Below are positions 5,016 through 63,474 of a stretch of DNA of 64,000 nt, piece by piece. How positions within the stretch are numbered: the stretch's first letter is position 1; each line of letters opens with the position of its first letter. Position numbers and translations under genes: made by a program. The DNA lies in assembly GCA_041441465.1 (NCBI GenBank), contig JASDSY010000010.1, positions 105,883-169,882 of the forward strand, written 5' to 3'. The DNA comes from Candidatus Wallbacteria bacterium. GTDB taxonomy: Bacteria > Muiribacteriota > UBA9980. Below the pieces are notes generated by a model, which ran no database searches, was not told the DNA's origin, and saw only the letters and a list, made by a program, of their open reading frames with translations.

Positions 5016-5054
5016 TTTTTCACGTTTCATAAATAATCACAATTTTAACACTAA

Positions 5055-5082
5055 ACGGCCTTTTAACAGGCCGTTTTTTTTA
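5055..5082 (+). terminator. intrinsic terminator after the carbamate kinase gene
   Basis: stem acggcct / aggccgt with loop tttaac, followed by an 8-T run. Confidence 0.7.
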
Positions 5083-5123
5083 TTTATAGATACACCATTA
5101 ATAGTTTGATCATTTTCTATGAT

Positions 5124-5411
5124 GGGGGAGTCAAAGGGCCAATGGCCCTCTAACTCCCCCTATTCCCCCCATAACTCCCGGCTATTTTTTCTTTGTTTAT
5201 TTTTAATTACCGCAAAGCGCGGACACTGTCCGCTTACTTTGCGGTAATTAAGCATTCGCGCAAAAATTTGCGCGATATGAAAATATAAGATAATATAACG
5301 AGCAGGCGCGGAGGCCTGCCGATAGACAGCAGTAAAGGTTCACGCTTATTTTATTTGATTGCCAGATACACGCAAAGCAAGTGGATACAATCCACGCTTT
5401 ACGTGTATATC
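5124..5411. repeat. cluster of five independent GC-rich hairpin palindromes in an otherwise AT-rich intergenic region
   Basis: hairpins at 5124-5160 (gggggagt...actccccc with inner agggcc/ggccct), 5203-5251 (ttaattaccgcaaag...ctttgcggtaattaa with inner gcggaca/tgtccgc), 5257-5274 (cgcgcaaa/tttgcgcg), 5302-5319 (gcaggc/gcctgc), 5365-5411 (gatacacgcaaagc...gctttacgtgtat with inner gtggat/atccac). Confidence 0.6.
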
Positions 5412-5444
5412 AGGATGGGTGGGGGTTTCAAGGAATTGTCAAAA

Positions 5445-5520
5445 AAGATTTTTTCGGGACCGCGTTCGAAAATCCTTCCGGGATTTTCGCCGCTTCCGAG
5501 ATGTCCCTGCAAAAATCTTT
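5445..5520 (+). repeat. structured intergenic element, copy A (second copy at 59611-59730)
   Basis: shares with copy B the blocks ttttttc-(g/a)ggg, hairpin aaaatcc-(t/a)tccg-ggatttt, ccgct and ccctgcaaaaat; closing helix gggac/gtccc. Confidence 0.5.
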
Positions 5521-5626
5521 TTTGACTCTAATATACATTCAATTTTTTAAAAGGTGTTTTATGAAATAAACTTTTTGATTAGCCTCTGACAAAAAAATTA
5601 AAAATGCGATGTTTTTTTTAAATATA

Positions 5627-5635
5627 TGTTATAAT
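5627..5635 (+). promoter_or_regulatory. extended -10 promoter element TGtTATAAT upstream of the 5674 gene
   Basis: tgttataat about 39 nt upstream of the ATG; RBS aaggag at 5661-5666. Confidence 0.35.
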
Positions 5636-5673
5636 TTACCTGGAAAACATTTTAAATTTAAGGAGCATTTTTA

Positions 5674-6324
5674 ATGAGAAGTAAAATAGTTTTATTTTTT
5701 ATGATTTTGACGATATTAATTTCATCAATCCCGGCTAATGCAGCAAGATTGGCCGAAGATAAAGGAAAAGAAGTGAAGCTTGACGCAGGGCAGAAGAAAA
5801 AACTGAACACTTTTTTCAGTAATTTTGCCGAAACATATCTCGAATTTTTCGCTGAAGGCAAAATTAAAAATGAAGAACTGATAAGGTTTGGAATACTGCA
5901 CAATTCAATTAATAAACCGGCTAATATAAAAAAAGTTGATAATTATTACGGTGTTCTGGCTGAAAAAGACGTCGAAACCGCCGCTAAAAAATATTTCGGC
6001 GAAATAAAAATAACAAATAAGTCAATTCAGGATTATGAATATTCGAAAGGCAATTATAAAATTCCTTATGCGGACGGCGAGGCATATAATTTTTCGCAGA
6101 TAGAAAAATTAATCGATATAAGTGATAATTATTATATCGCCTATTTAAATAACTACATTGCTTCTCCAGGTTTTACAGGCGATCCGCATGCTGCAATCGA
6201 TAAATTAAAAAAAGGCGAAGACACTCCGGAATTAAAAGATAAAATAAAAGCCGTAATAAAAAAGGTTGAAGACGGCGGCCAAAGCCGTTATATCTTAATC
6301 GAATATTTAAAAAATCAACTATAA
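5674..6324 (+). CDS. hypothetical secreted protein
   Basis: 216 aa; signal-peptide-like N-terminus MRSKIVLFFMILTILISSIPANAA; strong RBS; no family recognised. Confidence 0.55.
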   Translation: MRSKIVLFFMILTILISSIPANAARLAEDKGKEVKLDAGQKKKLNTFFSNFAETYLEFFAEGKIKNEELIRFGILHNSINKPANIKKVDNYYGVLAEKDVETAAKKYFGEIKITNKSIQDYEYSKGNYKIPYADGEAYNFSQIEKLIDISDNYYIAYLNNYIASPGFTGDPHAAIDKLKKGEDTPELKDKIKAVIKKVEDGGQSRYILIEYLKNQL

Positions 6325-55990: not shown

Positions 55991-57016
55991 TTAGCTGACG
56001 CTTTTAGAAATGCCTGTCAGCGTCTCAAACACGATTTTACGGAGTTTTGAGTTCTGGTAATTAATGCTGAAATCGACGGTGCCGTTTTCTACGAGGCTCT
56101 CCAATTCAACATTTTCACCAAGCAGTTCATTCAAGCGCTCTTCTGTAAAATCCTTAATAAAACTGAAATACTGCTCGCGCAGGCGTTTTTTTCTGATATC
56201 GGCGAATAATCCGCTTTTTTTCATATACCGGTCGTGCGCTTTTATTTTTTCGATAACTTCGCTCACGCCGTCGCCCGATATGCAGTTTGTTTTGACAATA
56301 GGAACGCTCCATTCGGAAACGATTCCGTCTTCACGGTTCTTATCTTCGCGAAGTTTCAGCATGTAATTAATTTCAGTGTAAACTTTTTCGACGCCGGTCC
56401 GGTCGCTTTTATTAATAACAAATATATCACCGATTTCAAAAAGTCCGGCTTTTATGGCCTGCACTTCATCGCCGAGTCCCGGCACTTCAGTCACAATAGT
56501 AGTATCTGTCATTTTAGCGACTTCGATCTCCAGTTGACCGACACCGACCGTTTCGACAATAATATAATTAAATCCGAATAATTCATAAATTCTCAAAACA
56601 TAAGGAATGCAGCGTGACATTCCACCCAGAGCGCCGCGCGTGCCCATGCTTCGAAAATAAAGATTAGGCGAAGTGAAATTAGACATTCTCACACGGTCGC
56701 CGAGTATCGCGCCGCCGGTGAACGGGCTTGAAGGATCGAAAGCTATAATTGCGATTTTCGCTTCCGGTTCTTTATTTAAAATCTCGCGCGATATTTTATC
56801 GACAAGCGTGCTTTTTCCAGCGCCCGGCGGCCCGGTAATGCCTATTATAGCCTGGTCAGGCGCGAGATAACTGGCAGGATTGCCGTTTTTATTCCTGAAA
56901 TGTTCTTCGAGTTTTGTCAATATCTCAAAGCCGTCATCGTCAAAATTTTCAACCGCCGTTATAAGTTTCGCCAGAGCGCGGTGATTGCCGTTCAAAAACT
57001 CATTATATATGTCCAT
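55991..57016 (-). CDS. meaB: MeaB/ArgK-type G-protein (methylmalonyl-CoA mutase-associated GTPase family)
   Basis: 341 aa; P-loop GITGPPGAGKST, VETVGVGQ and NKSD GTPase motifs. Confidence 0.7.
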   Translation of the reverse strand: MDIYNEFLNGNHRALAKLITAVENFDDDGFEILTKLEEHFRNKNGNPASYLAPDQAIIGITGPPGAGKSTLVDKISREILNKEPEAKIAIIAFDPSSPFTGGAILGDRVRMSNFTSPNLYFRSMGTRGALGGMSRCIPYVLRIYELFGFNYIIVETVGVGQLEIEVAKMTDTTIVTEVPGLGDEVQAIKAGLFEIGDIFVINKSDRTGVEKVYTEINYMLKLREDKNREDGIVSEWSVPIVKTNCISGDGVSEVIEKIKAHDRYMKKSGLFADIRKKRLREQYFSFIKDFTEERLNELLGENVELESLVENGTVDFSINYQNSKLRKIVFETLTGISKSVS

Positions 57017-57102
57017 TGTATCTGAAACTTCCTTTATTATTTTCTGTTGATGCCTTATCGATAATTATCATGCCAATTATTATTTTAATTTATTTCATGC
57101 AA

Positions 57103-57366
57103 TTATTTTCCGAATTTATAATGCTTTCTTACCTTTTCAATTACTGTCCATTCGCAGCTAAGCCCTTCGGGAAATACAACATAATCTCCGGCAGCGAATT
57201 CAACATTTTCTTTACCGGTTTTTATTTTTACTTTGCCGTCAAGAATAAGGCATATTTCCTGTTCGTCATAATGCCATGGAAATGTTTTAGGTTCGCATTC
57301 CCATATCGGCTCTTTTTTCATTTGATCAATTTCAGACTGTGAAGGTTTTTTTACTATTATCCGCAT
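57103..57366 (-). CDS. small single-domain cupin protein (cupin_3/DUF861-like)
   Basis: 87 aa; WECEP...DEQEICLILDGKVKI...GDYVVFPEG pattern. Confidence 0.55.
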   Translation of the reverse strand: MRIIVKKPSQSEIDQMKKEPIWECEPKTFPWHYDEQEICLILDGKVKIKTGKENVEFAAGDYVVFPEGLSCEWTVIEKVRKHYKFGK

Positions 57367-57760
57367 CGTTATAACCCTCCGATTGATTATTTTTTAGTAT
57401 ATTAGCATAAAAACAATATAAATACAATATGAGAATATAACATGTGATTGTGATAATGTAATATCAAAAATATCTAAATACATAAAACTAATATTTACAG
57501 TCATACATAAAATCTAACTTCTTCAGTCAGCGCTTCCATCAACTTCTTCTTGTATGAATCTATGTTTTATGATAAACTTTATTTTTAAATTTATCTTTAC
57601 CAAAATAATAAAATATCTAAACAGTAAAGAATAATTTTTTATAACTAAAACTATAAGCCTTCTATTAAATCCTGAACAAAATTTAATGTTATAACGCCAA
57701 AATAAACCGTTCTTTTCGAATTAATAATTAAAAAGCTAAATAAAAATTGGAGATTTAAAT

Positions 57761-59602
57761 ATGTATGAAGACCCGCATAAAATCCTGCAGCAGCATTTCG
57801 GCTATTCTAAATTCAGGGATGGCCAGCAGGAAATAATTTCGGCGATTATTTCAGGGCGCGACGCTCTGGGAATAATGCCGACAGGCGCAGGAAAATCACT
57901 ATGTTTTCAAATTCCTGCGCTTATGTTCAAAGGAACCGTCATTGTTATTTCACCGCTTATTTCTCTTATGAAAGACCAGGTTGAAGCTCTCCGGCAGGCC
58001 GGGTTGCCGGCGGCATTCATTAACAGCACGCTCACGGGACGCGAACGCAAAGAAATAGAAAATGACGCTCTGGAAGGCAAGTACAAGTTAATTTACATGG
58101 CGCCGGAGCGGCTTGAAAATCCTGAATTTTTGAAATTCTTAAACGATATTTCGGTTTCAATGGTAACAGTCGATGAGGCGCACTGCGTATCGCAATGGGG
58201 CCATGATTTCCGCCCGAGTTATCTCAAAATACCCAATATGATTGAAATGTTAGCCCAAAAACCTATCATTTCAGCATTTACGGCAACCGCGACGCCTATA
58301 GTAAAAAATGATATCATGCAGCTGCTTAAGTTAAATAATCCCGTCACGGTAGTAACAGGTTTTGACCGAAAAAATTTATATTTCGAAGTGAACAAGCCTT
58401 CAAGCAAATCTGAATTCACGCTCGACTACGTCCGGAAGAATTCCGGCAAAAGCGGCATAATTTACTGCATTACGCGTAAATTAGTCGAAAGCGTATGCGA
58501 CATTTTAAATTCCAACGGCATCCCCGCCGTACGGTATCACGCAGGATTATCTCAGAAAGAAAGAAGCGAGGCGCAGGAAAAGTTCATTTTTGAAGACGCC
58601 GGAATAATCGTCGCCACTAATGCTTTCGGCATGGGTATCGATAAATCAAACGTCAGGTTCGTATTGCACTATAACATGCCTAAAAACATAGAAAGTTATT
58701 ATCAGGAAGCCGGCAGGGCCGGGCGCGACGGCGAAAAAGCAGAGTGCATATTGCTCTTTTCAGGCCAGGACATCATCATGAATAAATTTTTAATTGAAAA
58801 CAGCGACAGGGACAAAGAAAAAAGCGGAGGCGAGCGTTCCGATAAGAGCGGCGAACTGCGAAAACTTTCTCAAATGGTAGATTATTGTTCCACGACATCA
58901 TGCATAAGACGCTACGTACTGAATTATTTCGGCGAAAATCATACTTATGAAAGCTGCGGCAACTGCGGAAGCTGTTTAAGCGCCCCGGCGGAACTTACCG
59001 ACATGACCGAATGCTGCCGGAAAATACTTTCGTGCATAAAACTTATGGGCGAGCGTTTCGGCCGCACTTTCGTATCAGAGGTTTTGCGCGGCTCAAATCC
59101 CGAACGCTCCAGTGAATTCGGATTTAATAGACTTTCGGTATACGGCGCTTTAAAAGAATATTCACAGGATTTTATAAAAGACACCATCTCGGCGCTTGCG
59201 GATGCCGGATATATAAAAGTTGACAGCAGCCAGTATCAAACGCTTTCATTATCATTTAAAGCCCTTAACTCATTAAACACAGGCGAAAAAATATTAATAA
59301 AAGCCGCTGAAATTAAAAGTAAATCCAAAGCAAAGGCCAAAACTAAAACCGCGCCTCAAAGTGCCGGAGACAGCAATTTATTTGACAGGTTAAGGGCATT
59401 GCGACGCGATCTGGCTCTTAAGCAGCGAGTACCGCCTTATCTGATATTTTCAGATGCCGCATTAAACAGCATGTGCCAATTACTGCCTTCGACCGATGAA
59501 GATTTTTTAGAAGTCAACGGCGTGGGCAGGCGGAAGCTTGAACAATACGGCGAGATTTTTATGGATGAAATTAAGCAGTTTCAGGATTCAAAAAGAGGTT
59601 AG
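57761..59602 (+). CDS. recQ: ATP-dependent DNA helicase RecQ
   Basis: 613 aa; FGYSKFRDGQQEII start, Walker A MPTGAGKS, DEAH box VDEAHCVSQWGHDFRP, Zn-binding Cys cluster, C-terminal HRDC-like region. Confidence 0.85.
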   Translation: MYEDPHKILQQHFGYSKFRDGQQEIISAIISGRDALGIMPTGAGKSLCFQIPALMFKGTVIVISPLISLMKDQVEALRQAGLPAAFINSTLTGRERKEIENDALEGKYKLIYMAPERLENPEFLKFLNDISVSMVTVDEAHCVSQWGHDFRPSYLKIPNMIEMLAQKPIISAFTATATPIVKNDIMQLLKLNNPVTVVTGFDRKNLYFEVNKPSSKSEFTLDYVRKNSGKSGIIYCITRKLVESVCDILNSNGIPAVRYHAGLSQKERSEAQEKFIFEDAGIIVATNAFGMGIDKSNVRFVLHYNMPKNIESYYQEAGRAGRDGEKAECILLFSGQDIIMNKFLIENSDRDKEKSGGERSDKSGELRKLSQMVDYCSTTSCIRRYVLNYFGENHTYESCGNCGSCLSAPAELTDMTECCRKILSCIKLMGERFGRTFVSEVLRGSNPERSSEFGFNRLSVYGALKEYSQDFIKDTISALADAGYIKVDSSQYQTLSLSFKALNSLNTGEKILIKAAEIKSKSKAKAKTKTAPQSAGDSNLFDRLRALRRDLALKQRVPPYLIFSDAALNSMCQLLPSTDEDFLEVNGVGRRKLEQYGEIFMDEIKQFQDSKRG

Positions 59603-59610
59603 TGTGCCAG

Positions 59611-59730
59611 ATAATTTTTTCAGGGGACGCTGCTAAAAATCCATCCGGGATTTTTAACCGCTCGGTGCTCCGGCGCCTCTCACCCATCCATGGGTTCCGG
59701 CGCCTTCGCAACACCCCTGCAAAAATTTCT
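59611..59730 (+). repeat. structured intergenic element, copy B (copy A at 5445-5520)
   Basis: same blocks as copy A; closing helix cagggg/cccctg; extra nested hairpin ggcgcc-[cccat-cc-atggg]-ggcgcc inserted relative to copy A; begins 9 nt after the recQ stop. Confidence 0.5.
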
Positions 59731-60075
59731 GTCACACTGTTAAATATTCCGAAAAATAATTCACTTATCATCACTATTTCCACCTAAAGAATAAACTTTG
59801 TCTATCGTTATAATTTTTATCCCTAAAACGAACTTGTGAAAAATGTGGGTTCGCAATTGTTCCAGATTTAGAATGATAAATAAATTTATGCTAATATGAA
59901 GGATTAAGCAAAAGCCCCGCTGCCCGTTCTATTTCAATACTCTCTTATTCTCATCTCGCCGGGCGTTCGCAGAGCTTCGAAAAATAACATTAAATTATCA
60001 TAAACAATATAAACGCTACCATATCAACATTTTTTAAAAATCGATATTTTTTTATTTCAAATTTTAAAAAAATTG

Positions 60076-60084
60076 TGATATAAT
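60076..60084 (+). promoter_or_regulatory. extended -10 promoter element TGaTATAAT upstream of the PLD-SNF2 gene
   Basis: tgatataat 25 nt upstream of the ATG at 60109; RBS aaggag. Confidence 0.35.
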
Positions 60085-60108
60085 TTTTTTCAAGAAAAAG
60101 GAGCCTAT

Positions 60109-63100
60109 ATGCCTAAAATCTATGACAATATAGAAAATCAACTAACACGCGGATTAAACGAAACGCTTGAATTATCCAATAGAGCGGACTTTTGCGTTGG
60201 TTACTTCAATCTTAGAGGCTGGAAAGAAGTCGCAGAAAAGATTGAAAAACTTACCGGTTCTGAAATTCTTGAAGGAAAAAATGATGTTCACCGAATTTGT
60301 CGATTATTGGTCGGCATGCAAAAATTACCCGTTGATATACTACGTGAACATTTCGGCCAGGACGAAAATTACATAATTGACAACGCAGAAGCGGTTAAAA
60401 TCAGGAAACGATTAGCGCAAGAATTCAAAGATCAATTAACGATAGGCACACCTTCCGAATCTGATGAAAAAGCGTTACGTCTTCTAAGCAAACAAATGAA
60501 AGAAAACAAAGTAACCGTTAAGTTACACTTGCGTTATACGCTTCATGCTAAACTATATCTGGCTTACAGCGACGATAAACGCGTTCCCATAGTTGGTTTC
60601 CTTGGAAGCAGTAATCTTACGTTGGCCGGACTTGCCAGACAGGGTGAGCTAAATATTGATGTTATGGATCAGGACGCCGCCGGAAAGCTTGCCAAATGGT
60701 TTGACGACCGCTGGAGTGATCGGTGGTGTCTCGATATTACACAGGAACTTATTGAAATTATCGATAACAGTTGGGCCGCTGATAGGATTGTATCTCCGTA
60801 TCATATTTATCTGAAAATAGCATATCATCTTTCACGAGAAGCACGTGCAGGCATTAATGAATTTAAATTGCCTAAAGTTTTTCAAAGAGAATTACTTGAA
60901 TTTCAACAAAAAGCCGTTCTTGTTGCGGCACATCACCTTCATAAAAGGGGCGGCGTATTAATTGGCGATGTGGTTGGACTTGGAAAAACAATAACAGCTA
61001 CCGCGCTTGCAAAATTATTCGAAGATGATTTTTTTCTTGAAACGCTTATAATTTGTCCCAAAAATCTCGTTCCGATGTGGGAAGAATATGCTCACAAATA
61101 TCAAATTAGGGCTAAAATAATATCACAAAGTAAAGTTCAGAGTCTGCTTCCTAACATGAGACGATACAGACTTGTAATTATAGATGAAAGCCATAATCTT
61201 AGAAATGACGAAGGAAGTCGCTATCGCGCAATCAAATCATACCTTGAAGAAAATGAAAGCAAGGTTATTTTGCTATCTGCAACGCCATATAACAAATCAT
61301 ACCTTGATTTATCAAATCAACTGCGTCTTTTCATATCAGATGACAAAGATTTAGGAATAAGTCCTGAAAGATATATTGATGAAATTGGAGGACAGATTCA
61401 ATTTGGCGCAAAGCACACTGAAACGTTTATACGAAGCATTAAAGCATTTGAGAAAAGTCATTTTTCAGATGATTGGCGCGAACTTATGCGTTTATATTTA
61501 GTTAGACGTACAAGAAGCTTTATAAAAAACAACTACGCCGCAACCGATCCAGAAAATAATAGAAAGTATTTAACTTTCGCCGATGGCACTAAATCATATT
61601 TTCCCGACAGGCTTCCTCGAAGGGTTGAATATGCTTTTAATCCAGATGATCCCAAAGATCAATATGCCAAATTATATTCGCCTGAAATAGTTGACATAGT
61701 TAATTCACTAGAATTACCAAGATATGGATTGGGTAACTTTTTAACTCCCAATCCGATTATAAAACCTGACAAAAACGAAGAAGTAATAATTGAAAATCTT
61801 TCGCGAGCCGGAAAACGATTAATGGGTTTTTGTCGTACAAATCTTTTTAAAAGACTTGAAAGCAGCGGATATTCATTTCTTGTTTCACTTTGCCGTCATA
61901 TTTTACGCAATTATATTTTTATATTCGCGCTTCAGAATAAACTGCCAATTCCAATTGGAAATAATATATCGCAAAATTTAGATGAATTTCTCGAAGACAG
62001 CGATACTGACAACGACACCAGAGAAGAAAGGCAATTTAATTTTATACTTGACGAAAATGAATATTTAAAAAAAGCGGAAAATGTATATTACTCTATGTTA
62101 AATGAAAAGAACCGTTATGACTGGATAAAAAGTGAACTATTTATTTCATCACTTCAAAAAAAGCTAATTGACGATAGCCGTGAAATAATTAAAATATTAA
62201 AAAAGGGCTATAATTGGGCCCCTGAAGAAGACAGACAATTAAACGCGCTTCATCAACTTATTGCTAATACTCATGGCAATGAAAAGGTCCTTGTTTTCAC
62301 TCAGTTTGCCGATACCGCAAATTATCTTACAGACAATTTGAAAAAAAGAGGCGTCAAAAAAATCGAATGTGTAACCGGCGATTGTGAAAATCCAACACAT
62401 TTAGCGCATCGTTTCAGCCCAAGAAGCAATGGCAATAATGAAATAGCCAACACTTCCGACGAATTAAAAGTGCTTATTACAACTGATGTATTGAGCGAAG
62501 GGCAAAACTTGCAAGACGGCCACATAATTTTAAATTACGACCTTCCGTGGGCAATTATTCGTTTAATACAACGTGCGGGGCGTGTTGACCGAATAGGCCA
62601 GAAATCAGATAAAATAATTTGCTATTCATTTTTTCCAGAAGACGGCATCGAGCAAATAATTAACCTCAGAAGCAGGCTAAGAACACGCATTGAACAAAAC
62701 GCCGAAGTTGTCGGCTCGGATGAAACATTTTTCGACGGCGATCCTGTCAATCTTGAAGATTTATATAACGAACGTTCAGGAATTTTAGACGATGATGATG
62801 ACGACGGCGAAGTTGACCTTGCATCTTACGCTTATCAAATCTGGAAAAACGCTACCGACGCCGATCCATCGTTAAACAAAAAAATACCGGATTTGCCGAA
62901 TGTTATTTATTCAACTAAACAGAACAACAATAAGCCTGAAACCGAAGGTGTTATTTTATATACGCGAACTACGGATGAAAATGATGTATTGACATGGATT
63001 GATAAAAATGGAAAAATCATAACACAATCACAGCTGACTATTTTAAAAGCCGCTCAATGTCCTCCGGATGTGAAGGCTTTTTATAAAATAGAAAATCACC

Positions 63101-63474
63101 ACGACCTTGTAAAAAAAGGAATTGACTACATTCGCGAAGAAGAAAAAAATACTGGAACGTCATTGGGCAAAAAGACGGGTGTAAAGTATAGAGTTTATAT
63201 GCGTCTGGACAGATATTGCAAAGAAAACGAAGATACGCTATTCGTAACCGAGGAACTAAAGAAAGCCATTAATGACATTTATAAATTTCCGATGAAAGAA
63301 TTTGCGCGTGATACACTTAACAGACAATTGAAAGCCGGAATTTCTGATGAAATGCTTGCCGGGCTCGTTGTTTCACTGCGCGAAGATGATAAGCTGGTAA
63401 TAGTTAATGAAGATGAGATGCCAAACAGGCTTCCTCAAATTATTTGTTCACTTGGACTTAAAAATGGAGAATGA
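60109..63474 (+). CDS. PLD-like (HKD-type) nuclease domain fused to SNF2/DEXH-family helicase
   Basis: 1121 aa; N-terminal HKD-like segment HAKLYLAYSDD...GSSNLT; helicase motif I GDVVGLGKTITA, motif II LVIIDESHNLRN, helicase C motifs TDVLSEGQNLQD and QRAGRVDRIGQ. Confidence 0.8.
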   Translation: MPKIYDNIENQLTRGLNETLELSNRADFCVGYFNLRGWKEVAEKIEKLTGSEILEGKNDVHRICRLLVGMQKLPVDILREHFGQDENYIIDNAEAVKIRKRLAQEFKDQLTIGTPSESDEKALRLLSKQMKENKVTVKLHLRYTLHAKLYLAYSDDKRVPIVGFLGSSNLTLAGLARQGELNIDVMDQDAAGKLAKWFDDRWSDRWCLDITQELIEIIDNSWAADRIVSPYHIYLKIAYHLSREARAGINEFKLPKVFQRELLEFQQKAVLVAAHHLHKRGGVLIGDVVGLGKTITATALAKLFEDDFFLETLIICPKNLVPMWEEYAHKYQIRAKIISQSKVQSLLPNMRRYRLVIIDESHNLRNDEGSRYRAIKSYLEENESKVILLSATPYNKSYLDLSNQLRLFISDDKDLGISPERYIDEIGGQIQFGAKHTETFIRSIKAFEKSHFSDDWRELMRLYLVRRTRSFIKNNYAATDPENNRKYLTFADGTKSYFPDRLPRRVEYAFNPDDPKDQYAKLYSPEIVDIVNSLELPRYGLGNFLTPNPIIKPDKNEEVIIENLSRAGKRLMGFCRTNLFKRLESSGYSFLVSLCRHILRNYIFIFALQNKLPIPIGNNISQNLDEFLEDSDTDNDTREERQFNFILDENEYLKKAENVYYSMLNEKNRYDWIKSELFISSLQKKLIDDSREIIKILKKGYNWAPEEDRQLNALHQLIANTHGNEKVLVFTQFADTANYLTDNLKKRGVKKIECVTGDCENPTHLAHRFSPRSNGNNEIANTSDELKVLITTDVLSEGQNLQDGHIILNYDLPWAIIRLIQRAGRVDRIGQKSDKIICYSFFPEDGIEQIINLRSRLRTRIEQNAEVVGSDETFFDGDPVNLEDLYNERSGILDDDDDDGEVDLASYAYQIWKNATDADPSLNKKIPDLPNVIYSTKQNNNKPETEGVILYTRTTDENDVLTWIDKNGKIITQSQLTILKAAQCPPDVKAFYKIENHHDLVKKGIDYIREEEKNTGTSLGKKTGVKYRVYMRLDRYCKENEDTLFVTEELKKAINDIYKFPMKEFARDTLNRQLKAGISDEMLAGLVVSLREDDKLVIVNEDEMPNRLPQIICSLGLKNGE

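What the first reader, a model, noticed from the sequence alone, without database searches (positions are those of the whole stretch)
59611..59730. Copy B of the structured element sits directly after recQ and carries an inserted nested hairpin
Seen: copy B begins 9 nt after the recQ stop. Relative to copy A it has about 45 extra nt forming a nested stem-loop (GGCGCC arms enclosing CCCAT-CC-ATGGG). This insertion lies between conserved blocks, as expected for a variable stem in an RNA family. The element ends in TGCAAAAAT followed by T-rich sequence, and lies about 380 nt upstream of the PLD-SNF2 gene. Inference: it may act as the recQ terminator, as a small RNA, or as a 5' regulatory element for the downstream defence-like gene; these cannot be separated from sequence alone.
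Basis: seen in the sequence. Interest (0 to 1): 0.5.

Follow-up and report, generated by a model that had tools for sequence, protein, structure and literature searches.

The report
Structured dispersed repeat after recQ
The hairpin-rich sequence after recQ is one copy of a repeat scattered through the genomes of the uncultured Wallbacteria; it probably moves or is copied as parasitic DNA and is not a dedicated recQ terminator or a switch for the next gene.

Summary
Copies A and B share one fold, and B has about 40-45 extra nt forming a nested hairpin.

Two details change:
- B spans about 59599-59740 and starts on the recQ stop codon, not 9 nt after it.
- B is the canonical form. A is a derivative that has lost the arm.

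B and A belong to a multi-copy family. Other copies lie in three further Wallbacteria-lineage MAGs, in digester metagenomes and on one phage-like contig.

Evidence that it is a dispersed repeat:
- Copies sit at contig ends and form tandem mosaics.
- They occur in both orientations relative to genes.
- Content differs between orthologous intergenic regions of close relatives.
- Four recQ orthologues (72-79% identity) have no copy after the gene.

The fold is a three-way junction: a long terminal stem, an invariant AAAAUCC-NUCCG-GGAUUUU hairpin and a variable arm. Covariation is strong: 14 of 38 pairs show compensatory changes, including 5 of 6 in the nested GGCGCC stem.

There is no Rfam match, no canonical terminator U-tract, and no cognate transposase or RAYT in about 1 Mb examined. 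A Clostridia repeat family shares the hairpin and junction blocks.

Verdict: a new family of a known kind (MITE/REPIN/BOX-like). How it is mobilised is unknown.

The parts
59599..59740 (+). Copy B: a full-length canonical member of the repeat family. It overlaps the recQ stop codon (59600-59602).
   Evidence: CM R1 scores 121.7 bits, E 2e-31, over model positions 1-139 on the + strand, against 16.7 bits on the - strand. An nhmmer HMM built without any window sequence gives E 4e-29. GC is 53%, against 40% for the window and 29% for the flanking intergenic DNA.
59600..59626 (+). 5' arm of the outer stem (TAGTGTGCCAGATAATTTTTTCAGGGG). It pairs with 59714-59740.
   Evidence: MFE fold. Inverted repeat I3. 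Covariation in helices 1-2 across the family.
59635..59655 (+). P2 hairpin AAAAATCC-ATCCG-GGATTTTT, the most conserved block of the family.
   Evidence: Exact pattern match. The stem and the UCC loop are invariant in all 27 aligned copies. The hairpin sequence is unchanged in 31 of 32 metagenome copies that were found without using P2 as the query. The closing pair covaries: A:T 13, G:C 10, T:A 5.
59666..59710 (+). Variable arm. Helix 4 is TGC (59666-59668) / GCA (59708-59710). Helix 5 is GGCGCC (59672-59677 / 59699-59704). Helix 6 is CCCAT / ATGGG (59683-59694). This is the 'inserted nested hairpin' of the finding.
   Evidence: helix 5 has compensatory changes in 5 of 6 pairs and helix 4 in 3 of 5. 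The arm is present in all 27 full-length copies. In copy A it is replaced by 7 nt.
59714..59740 (+). 3' arm of the outer stem (CCCCTGCAAAAATTTCTGTCACACTGT).
5433..5530 (+). Copy A: a derivative without the arm. It keeps the outer stem (5438-5458 / 5506-5526) and P2 (5469-5487). Helices 4-6 are deleted.
   Evidence: CM R1 scores 66.7 bits, E 3.5e-16, with a 47-position deletion. nhmmer gives E 1.5e-13. Fold -34 kcal/mol, z -4.5. Inverted repeat I2.
57761..59602 (+). recQ. It is the upstream gene, and its stop codon lies inside the first bases of copy B.
   Evidence: ORF. Pfam domains DEAD, Helicase_C, RecQ_Zn_bind, RQC and HRDC. 100% identical to a protein that NCBI names Candidatus Wallbacteria RecQ.
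60056..60084 (+). Promoter-like site (TTCAAA, 17-nt spacer, TG-TATAAT) directly upstream of the PLD-SNF2 gene. This argues that the gene has its own promoter.
   Evidence: 10 of 12 consensus matches with an extended -10 TG.
60109..63474 (+). HKD (PLD) + SNF2 helicase gene, a candidate defence gene. It is context only and not part of the element.
   Evidence: PADLOC C3a139 'HKD+Snf2', E 8e-52. Pfam PLDc_2, SNF2-rel_dom and Helicase_C.

Best explanation
Copy B is a full-length member of a previously undescribed family of small, non-coding, hairpin-forming dispersed repeats in Candidatus Wallbacteria. The family works like a MITE, REPIN or BOX element.

Anatomy. Each unit has a terminal stem of 20 to more than 28 bp formed by its two ends. 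Inside is an asymmetric three-way junction. One branch is an invariant hairpin (AAAAUCC-NUCCG-GGAUUUU). The other is an arm whose length varies by whole hairpin modules.

What is shown:
- the family has many copies;
- copies form mosaics of modules;
- they occur in both orientations;
- their content turns over quickly between close relatives;
- recQ orthologues lack a copy;
- the fold is kept by compensatory changes.

What is inferred. The unit is propagated in trans, by an enzyme not yet identified, probably acting on a folded single strand. That would explain why pairing is conserved rather than sequence. Alternatively it spreads by recombination between copies. The window holds one intact copy (B), which landed on or at the recQ stop codon, and one decayed copy (A) that lost the variable arm.

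Likely local consequence (inferred). B is transcribed as the 3' end of the recQ mRNA. There it forms a structure of about -50 kcal/mol over the 131-nt stretch folded. This structure could block exonucleases, pause or stop RNA polymerase, or attract RNase III. These are side-effects and not the reason the sequence exists.
For: Copy number and spread:
- nhmmer with the family HMM finds 30 hits in 141 kb of ADurb.Bin243 loci and 24 in 78 kb of JPNA_metabat.86 loci. It also finds copies in Wallbacteria GWC2_49_35, SRP192927_co10_55 and SRP302447_co1_224.
- A metagenome scan using a different block found 33 more loci with 44 hits.
- One copy lies on an IMG/VR contig, about 4 kb from a tail-fibre assembly chaperone gene.

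Assembly behaviour:
- By my count from the loci, about half of the copies in the two MAGs lie within about 250 nt of a contig end.
- The Logan contig that carries this recQ is 54,244 nt long. One end falls inside copy B. The other end, by arithmetic that assumes collinearity with the window, falls inside copy A.

Modularity:
- The distance from P2 to the 3' arm falls into size classes of 48, about 87 and about 142 nt, plus larger mosaics.
- The extra module of about 55 nt is inserted at model position 76, at the base of the arm.

Orientation: my tally of the rows gives 11 sense and 6 antisense copies between co-directional genes.

Turnover: orthologous intergenic regions of ADurb and JPNA have flanking genes 97-98% identical, yet differ in the number and module content of copies.

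Not conserved at this site: recQ orthologues of 79, 77, 73 and 72% identity have gaps of 18-87 nt after the stop and no copy. One has an ordinary GC-stem plus T-tract terminator instead.

Structure:
- 98.3% of cells are paired, against 31-60% in slid controls.
- 14 of 38 pairs show changes on both sides (97 cells). None of 500 shuffles reaches these values for four of the five measures, and 1 of 500 does for pair types.

No match to a known RNA: Rfam gives nothing at the gathering score, and nothing over either copy at E up to 10.
Against: - No mobilising enzyme was found.
  - No paralogous ORFs lie near copies.
  - 141 neighbouring ORFs are a mix of housekeeping genes.
  - The one IS next to a copy (IS5 family, L038) has unrelated ends, GAGCCTATCCGTAAATAA.
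  - E. coli RayT finds no relative in the loci held.
- No target-site duplication could be defined, because the palindrome and conserved flanks keep extending outward.
- No clean pair of occupied and empty sites was recovered.
- All six copies that lie within 50 nt of a stop codon are in the sense orientation. Covariation is as strong as in bona fide structured RNAs. An RNA-level role for some copies is therefore not excluded.
- Only 64 kb of the window's own genome was available, so its copy number is unknown.
Confidence: 0.75

Rival explanations
1. The element is a cis-acting RNA at the 3' end of recQ. It would act as an unusual intrinsic terminator or as an mRNA-stabilising 3' structure, and would be kept for that purpose. 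The family would then be a class of portable terminators, like the pneumococcal SPRITE.
For: - B abuts the recQ stop in the sense orientation.
- No other terminator-like site lies on the + strand between recQ and the next gene.
- An orthologue carries an ordinary terminator at the same place.
- All six copies within 50 nt of a stop codon are sense.
- The fold is very stable.
Against: - No U-tract follows the stem. The A5 and T6 runs pair with each other, and the scan did not call the site.
- By my tally, 6 of 17 copies between co-directional genes are antisense.
- Copies occur in tandem arrays and between divergent genes.
- The conserved three-way junction and invariant P2 loop are unnecessary for termination.
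Confidence: 0.1
2. The element is a multi-copy structured non-coding RNA gene, such as a trans-acting sRNA or a protein-binding RNA. It would be transcribed on its own.
For: - Strong covariation in a three-way junction with conserved loops.
- The CM scores far higher on the + strand than on the - strand.
- The core appears in two phyla.
Against: - No conserved promoter or terminator flanks the copies.
- There are dozens of copies per genome, with truncations, nested insertions and mosaics.
- G:U pairs number 13 and A:C mispairs 4, and 7 of the G:U pairs come from one pair column. This gives no clear strand signal.
- No Rfam family matches.
Confidence: 0.07
3. The element is a 5' leader, riboswitch or attenuator that controls the downstream PLD-SNF2 defence-like gene.
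For: It has the same orientation as the gene and lies about 370 nt upstream.
Against: - A strong promoter-like site with an extended -10 lies at 60056-60084, between the element and the start codon.
- Genes downstream of other copies are unrelated to each other.
- Copy A precedes an unrelated secreted-looking protein.
- No riboswitch family matches.
Confidence: 0.02
4. The element is a site for site-specific recombination, folded like an integron attC site or marking an island boundary. It would mark the junction between recQ and a variable defence region.
For: - It is an imperfect palindrome with a variable central part, placed right after a stop codon.
- The genes downstream of recQ differ in every relative examined.
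Against: - The ends carry no RYYYAAC / GTTRRRY core sites (read directly).
- Tandem copies 170-260 nt apart leave no room for cassettes.
- No integrase family appears among the 25 most frequent Pfam families of the 141 neighbouring ORFs, which is all the output shows.
- A and B are only about 75% identical, so they are not an attL/attR pair.
Confidence: 0.03

Closest known systems
BOX elements of Streptococcus pneumoniae (boxA-boxB(n)-boxC)
   Same: Both are small non-coding dispersed repeats whose two terminal modules pair with each other. Both have an internal module that folds on its own and can be absent or repeated. Both are often co-transcribed with neighbouring genes, and both vary between close strains (PMC3049150; here).
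   Different: I saw no resemblance to BOX sequences; this was not tested by alignment. The host is a different phylum. Here the core is an asymmetric three-way junction with an invariant hairpin, and the variable modules are nested hairpins rather than a tandem boxB array.
ERIC/IRU and Correia elements (bacterial MITEs)
   Same: Both are imperfect palindromes of about 100-160 nt in intergenic DNA. Both have shorter and longer variants caused by internal deletions and insertions at fixed positions. Both are often found at gene 3' ends and co-transcribed, with orientation-dependent effects on mRNA (review PMC3184786).
   Different: ERIC and Correia elements have defined terminal inverted repeats with TA target duplications. 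No duplication or cognate transposase could be shown here.
REP/REPIN elements mobilised by RAYT (Y1 HUH) transposases
   Same: Both are extragenic, have many copies and form hairpins. Both occur as clusters or mosaics like BIMEs. Pairing is kept by compensatory change, as expected if a folded single strand is the substrate. Several lineages have a GGTAG just outside the 5' arm, mirrored by CTAC at the 3' end.
   Different: No RAYT relative was found in the sequence held. The unit is larger, at 135-250 nt. It contains a single non-symmetrical core instead of two inverted REPs.
SPRITE and other terminator-like repeats
   Same: Both are repeats found close to gene 3' ends, and both can supply a stem-loop there (PMC3049150).
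   Different: SPRITE is a simple duplex followed by a U-rich tract. This element has no free U-tract and a far more elaborate fold.

Membership tests
MITE (non-autonomous derivative of a DDE transposon) | Small, non-coding, with many dispersed copies per genome | tested here: met
   Units are 100-250 nt. At least 30 and at least 24 hits were found in the partial sequence of two MAGs, and 44 more in metagenome contigs.
MITE (non-autonomous derivative of a DDE transposon) | Terminal inverted repeats | tested here: met
   The two ends pair over 20 to more than 28 bp in every copy. The arm sequences differ between lineages while pairing is kept.
MITE (non-autonomous derivative of a DDE transposon) | Target-site duplication flanking each copy | tested here: inconclusive
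   The flanks of 11 copies were inspected and flank alignments were made. The ends cannot be fixed, because pairing and conservation extend outward. No consistent duplication was seen.
MITE (non-autonomous derivative of a DDE transposon) | A cognate autonomous IS with the same termini in the same genomes | tested here: inconclusive
   None was found in about 1 Mb of loci held. The one adjacent IS (IS5 family, L038 about 5279-6203) has unrelated ends. Whole genomes could not be searched.
REP/REPIN-RAYT system | A RAYT (Y1 transposase) gene in the genome, typically flanked by the repeats | tested here: inconclusive
   jackhmmer with E. coli RayT against 3556 ORFs from all loci and the window gave one hit only, in an unrelated Cyclobacteriaceae locus. 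Whole genomes were not available.
REP/REPIN-RAYT system | A short GC-rich palindrome preceded by a conserved GTAG, arranged as inverted doublets | tested here: inconclusive
   GGTAG and CTAC lie outside the arms in ADurb, JPNA, co10 and GWC2 copies. The unit is not a doublet of one REP, and copy B has GGTTAG instead.
Rho-independent terminator | A GC-rich stem followed directly by a run of U | tested here: not met
   The scan of 57000-61000 reports no + strand site at the element. The stem is followed by TGTTAAATATTCC. The internal T and A runs are base-paired with each other.
Any Rfam 15 family (riboswitch, sRNA, ribozyme) | A score at or above the family's gathering threshold | tested here: not met
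   There are no matches at the gathering score in the window. Nothing overlaps either copy at E up to 10.
Integron attC site | R''/R' core sites (RYYYAAC ... GTTRRRY) at the ends, and a cassette ORF between successive sites | tested here: not met
   The ends read GCCAGAYAA ... TTRTCTGGC. Tandem copies are 170-260 nt apart with no ORF between them.

The most novel reading that the evidence does not exclude
The Wallbacteria repeats and the Clostridia repeats may form one cross-phylum superfamily. Its conserved part would be a three-way-junction core, not its ends. The core consists of the invariant AAAAUCC-NUCCG-GGAUUUU hairpin, the AGCUC ... UCCGCUWAC helix and a free-length arm. This core would be the recognition module of an undescribed machinery specific for single strands. 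Candidates are an HUH or Y1 enzyme, an integrase acting on folded DNA as at attC sites, or an RNA-level copying route. Phages could carry the element between phyla.
Probability: 0.15. Interest if true: 0.6.

Novelty: new member of a known kind. Interest (0 to 1): 0.33.

Why it matters
For annotation, this removes a false lead. The element is not a regulator specific to recQ or to the defence-like gene. Similar hits elsewhere in these genomes should be masked as repeats.

For biology, it documents the first repeat family that I could find for the uncultured phylum Wallbacteria. A full-text search returned 15 papers mentioning the phylum; judging from their titles and abstracts only, none concerns its repeats.

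The fold is unusually well supported, the modules are clear, and the core appears to recur in Clostridia from similar anaerobic-digester habitats.

The family breaks short-read assemblies of these MAGs. It also marks fast-evolving intergenic regions.

If its mobilising enzyme were found, it could reveal another system that acts on folded single strands.

Tried and rejected
- **Rfam.** Searched at gathering and permissive thresholds: nothing on either copy.
- **Terminator scan.** Not called.
- **attL/attR pair bounding a 54-kb island.** Rejected. A and B are only about 75% identical and belong to a genome-wide family.
- **attC site.** Rejected, because there are no core sites and no cassettes.
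- **Linked transposase.**
  - Paralogue search among ORFs near copies found none.
  - A Pfam scan of 141 neighbouring ORFs gave mostly housekeeping families and two DDE_Tnp_1 hits.
  - A separate search seeded with E. coli InsL and InsH then found two IS-type ORFs near copies; I take these to be the two DDE_Tnp_1 hits, but did not cross-check. One is an IS5-family IS with unrelated ends. The other is an IS186-type transposase scoring 660 bits against E. coli InsL on a metagenome contig, probably contamination or a chimera.
- **RAYT.** No relative in the loci held.
- **Shared downstream gene family.** Rejected, because the downstream genes are unrelated.
- **Strand of selection from G:U against A:C counts.** 13 against 4, but 7 of the 13 come from one pair column. 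Inconclusive.
- **Target-site duplication.** Could not be defined.
- **Annotated phages and plasmids.** No similarity.
- **Further copies in the window.** None. The next CM hit has E 0.13.
- **Other modules of the ADurb/JPNA composite repeat in the window.** Absent.

Full report
**What is at the coordinates**

- recQ is the ORF 57761-59602. It has DEAD, Helicase_C, RecQ_Zn_bind, RQC and HRDC domains. It is 100% identical to a protein that NCBI names RecQ of a Candidatus Wallbacteria MAG.
- A GC-rich stretch starts directly at the recQ TAG stop (53% GC, against 40% for the window and 29% for the rest of the intergenic region).
- This stretch folds into a long outer stem that encloses two inner hairpins. 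The 131-nt stretch folded gives -50.7 kcal/mol, z -5.3 against shuffles.
- Copy A at about 5433-5530 folds into the same outer stem and first hairpin (-34 kcal/mol, z -4.5).
- The two copies share AAAATCC-N-TCCGGGATTTT exactly. Only 0.24 matches are expected in the window even when three mismatches are allowed.

**It is a family, and B is the canonical form**

Dozens of these lie in five genomes:
- bacterium ADurb.Bin243;
- bacterium JPNA_metabat.86;
- Candidatus Wallbacteria GWC2_49_35;
- SRP192927_co10_55;
- SRP302447_co1_224, whose RecQ is 73% identical to the window's.

An HMM built from 24 copies of other genomes finds B at E 4e-29 and A at E 1.5e-13, and nothing else in the window. A covariance model gives:

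| Copy | + strand | - strand |
|---|---|---|
| B | 121.7 bits | 16.7 bits |
| A | 66.7 bits | 19.6 bits |

A is aligned over the whole model, with 47 positions replaced by 7 nt. All 27 full-length copies carry the GGCGCC/CCCAUCCAUGGG arm. So B did not gain a hairpin; A lost it.

The element also extends further than the finding says, to 59599-59740. The 'TGCAAAAAT plus T-rich' end is the 3' strand of the outer stem, not a tail.

**Behaviour of the family**

- *Size classes.* The distance from P2 to the 3' arm is 48 nt (A only), about 87 nt (canonical) or about 142 nt. The longest class carries an extra hairpin module of about 55 nt inserted at the base of the arm. Larger mosaics and half-copies also occur.
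- *Tandem copies.* Copies are often 170-260 nt apart.
- *Contig ends.* By my count, about half of the copies in the two MAGs lie within about 250 nt of a contig end. A Logan contig of the window's own genome has one end inside B. Its 54,244-nt length puts the other end inside A, assuming collinearity.
- *Orientation.* My tally gives 11 sense and 6 antisense copies between co-directional genes. Copies also lie between divergent and convergent genes. All six copies within 50 nt of a stop codon are sense.
- *Neighbours.* Flanking genes are unrelated housekeeping genes.
- *Turnover.* ADurb and JPNA have flanking proteins 97-98% identical. Their orthologous intergenic regions still differ in how many units they hold and which modules those carry.
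- *recQ orthologues.* Four loci (79, 77, 73 and 72% identity) have only 18-87 nt after the stop and no copy. One has a plain GC-stem plus T-tract terminator.
- *Phage-like contig.* One full copy lies on an IMG/VR contig about 4 kb from a tail-fibre assembly chaperone gene.
- *Independent scan.* A metagenome scan with a different block of the element found 33 more loci, from digester, activated-sludge and other metagenomes. P2 is unchanged in 31 of 32 copies, and its closing pair is A:T, G:C or T:A.

**The fold is real**

On 27 copies, RNAalifold predicts 38 pairs in six helices. These are the outer stem, GGGG/CCCC, P2 with two flanking pairs, a junction helix (YG.WGC with GCW.CR), the GGCGCC stem and the GCCC/GGGC stem.
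- 98.3% of cells are paired, against 31-60% when partners are slid by 1-3 columns.
- 14 pairs have changes on both sides (97 cells).
- No shuffle of 500 reaches these values for four of the five measures, and one of 500 does for pair types.
- The stem singled out by the finding has compensatory changes in 5 of 6 pairs, with up to four pair types at one position.
- Many copies are related by descent, so the shuffle counts overstate significance. The slid controls and the variety of pair types do not depend on that.

G:U pairs (13 cells, 7 of them in one pair column) against A:C mispairs (4) do not tell which strand, or whether RNA or DNA, is selected.

**What it is not**

- *A known RNA.* No Rfam family matches.
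- *A canonical terminator.* The scan calls nothing there, and no U-run follows the stem.
- *The leader of the PLD-SNF2 gene.* That gene is PADLOC 'HKD+Snf2'. A TTCAAA-17-TG-TATAAT site lies at 60056-60084, directly before its start. Other copies precede unrelated genes.
- *An attC site or an attL/attR pair.* There are no core sites and no cassettes, and A and B are only about 75% identical.

**Mechanism**

*Shown.* This is a multi-copy, modular repeat that turns over rapidly and whose pairing is maintained.

*Inferred.* It is a non-autonomous element, spread by a trans-acting enzyme that recognises a folded single strand, or by recombination among copies. At this site it is carried on the recQ transcript, where its stability could affect 3'-end formation.

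*The enzyme was not found.*
- There are no paralogous ORFs near copies.
- The one neighbouring IS (IS5 family) has unrelated ends and its own TAA duplication.
- E. coli RayT has no relative in the sequence held.
- No target duplication could be defined.

**An unexpected relative**

A repeat family in 'Clostridiales bacterium CTOTU40347' has 29 P2 hairpins in 199 kb. Related copies occur in two other Clostridia MAGs.
- It has the same P2 hairpin in the same place, a different but equally long outer stem, and the colinear blocks AGCTC ... TCCGCTWAC. Only 11 nt separate these blocks, where Wallbacteria have the arm.
- The Wallbacteria model aligns these copies end to end at 22-30 bits. P2 alone gives about 21 bits.
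- I take this as probable homology.
- The sampling was biased, because the search used P2 as its query. The link is therefore a lead and not a result.

**Verdict**

This is a real feature, well above chance, and its structure was described correctly. Its nature is a dispersed structured repeat: a new family of a known kind. It is of moderate interest, mainly for the strength of its fold and the possible cross-phylum core.

Noticed in passing
window 5016-5673: The 660-nt intergenic region that holds copy A is packed with other hairpins. 5053-5076 plus a T-run looks like the terminator of the upstream amino-acid-kinase gene. Others lie at 5124-5160, 5203-5251 (15-bp perfect arms) and 5366-5408. 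The hairpins at 5211-5243 and 5371-5403 are 76% complementary to each other, so they may be a second small repeat family.
   Followed up: partly
L002-L119 (DAIMRG01 contigs, e.g. L070 2560-2678; also L037, L090, L103): A repeat family of about 115 nt in 'Clostridiales bacterium CTOTU40347' and two other Clostridia MAGs. It has the identical P2 hairpin, the blocks AGCTC...TCCGCTWAC, and a different covarying outer stem with two arm subfamilies. It is possibly homologous to the Wallbacteria family.
   Followed up: partly
L010 about 640-760, L005, L026, L063, L079 (ADurb.Bin243 and JPNA_metabat.86): In these two MAGs the element is part of a composite repeat of 400-600 nt. The composite continues with a promoter-like TTGACT-N17-CATTAT, a perfect hairpin GCAGACGCGCGCGTGCGCGCGTCTGC, A-rich CAGAA repeats and a second hairpin (AAGGGAAGG...CCTTCCCTT). 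It usually lies about 500 nt upstream of unrelated co-oriented genes. It may be a portable promoter or leader cassette.
   Followed up: partly
L038 6236-6350 and L041 about 1470-1510: A 37-nt sequence, GTCGTAATCCCTTTTAAATCAGGTCTTTTCTTTGAAT, is repeated with a spacer of about 37 nt at the end of a JPNA contig. It appears once in ADurb. It looks like the start of a CRISPR array.
   Followed up: no
L147 1435-2598: A digester metagenome contig with a Wallbacteria element also encodes a transposase that scores 660 bits against E. coli IS186 InsL (370 aa). This is probably contamination or a chimeric assembly.
   Followed up: no
L121 4749-4883 (IMGVR_UViG_3300037047_000294): A full-length copy of the element lies on a contig classed as viral. 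It is in an AT-rich intergenic region about 4 kb from a phage tail-fibre assembly chaperone gene. This is a possible route for transfer between hosts.
   Followed up: partly
window 59603-63474 compared with L122-L125: The genes downstream of recQ differ in every relative examined. In the window the slot holds an HKD+Snf2 defence-candidate gene (PADLOC C3a139). Copy B therefore sits at the junction of conserved and variable DNA.
   Followed up: partly
L038 about 5279-6203: An IS5-family insertion sequence with two overlapping ORFs of 170 and 131 aa, ends GAGCCTATCCGTAAATAA and flanking TAA on both sides. It is inserted 30 nt from a repeat copy, and its ends are unrelated to the repeat.
   Followed up: yes
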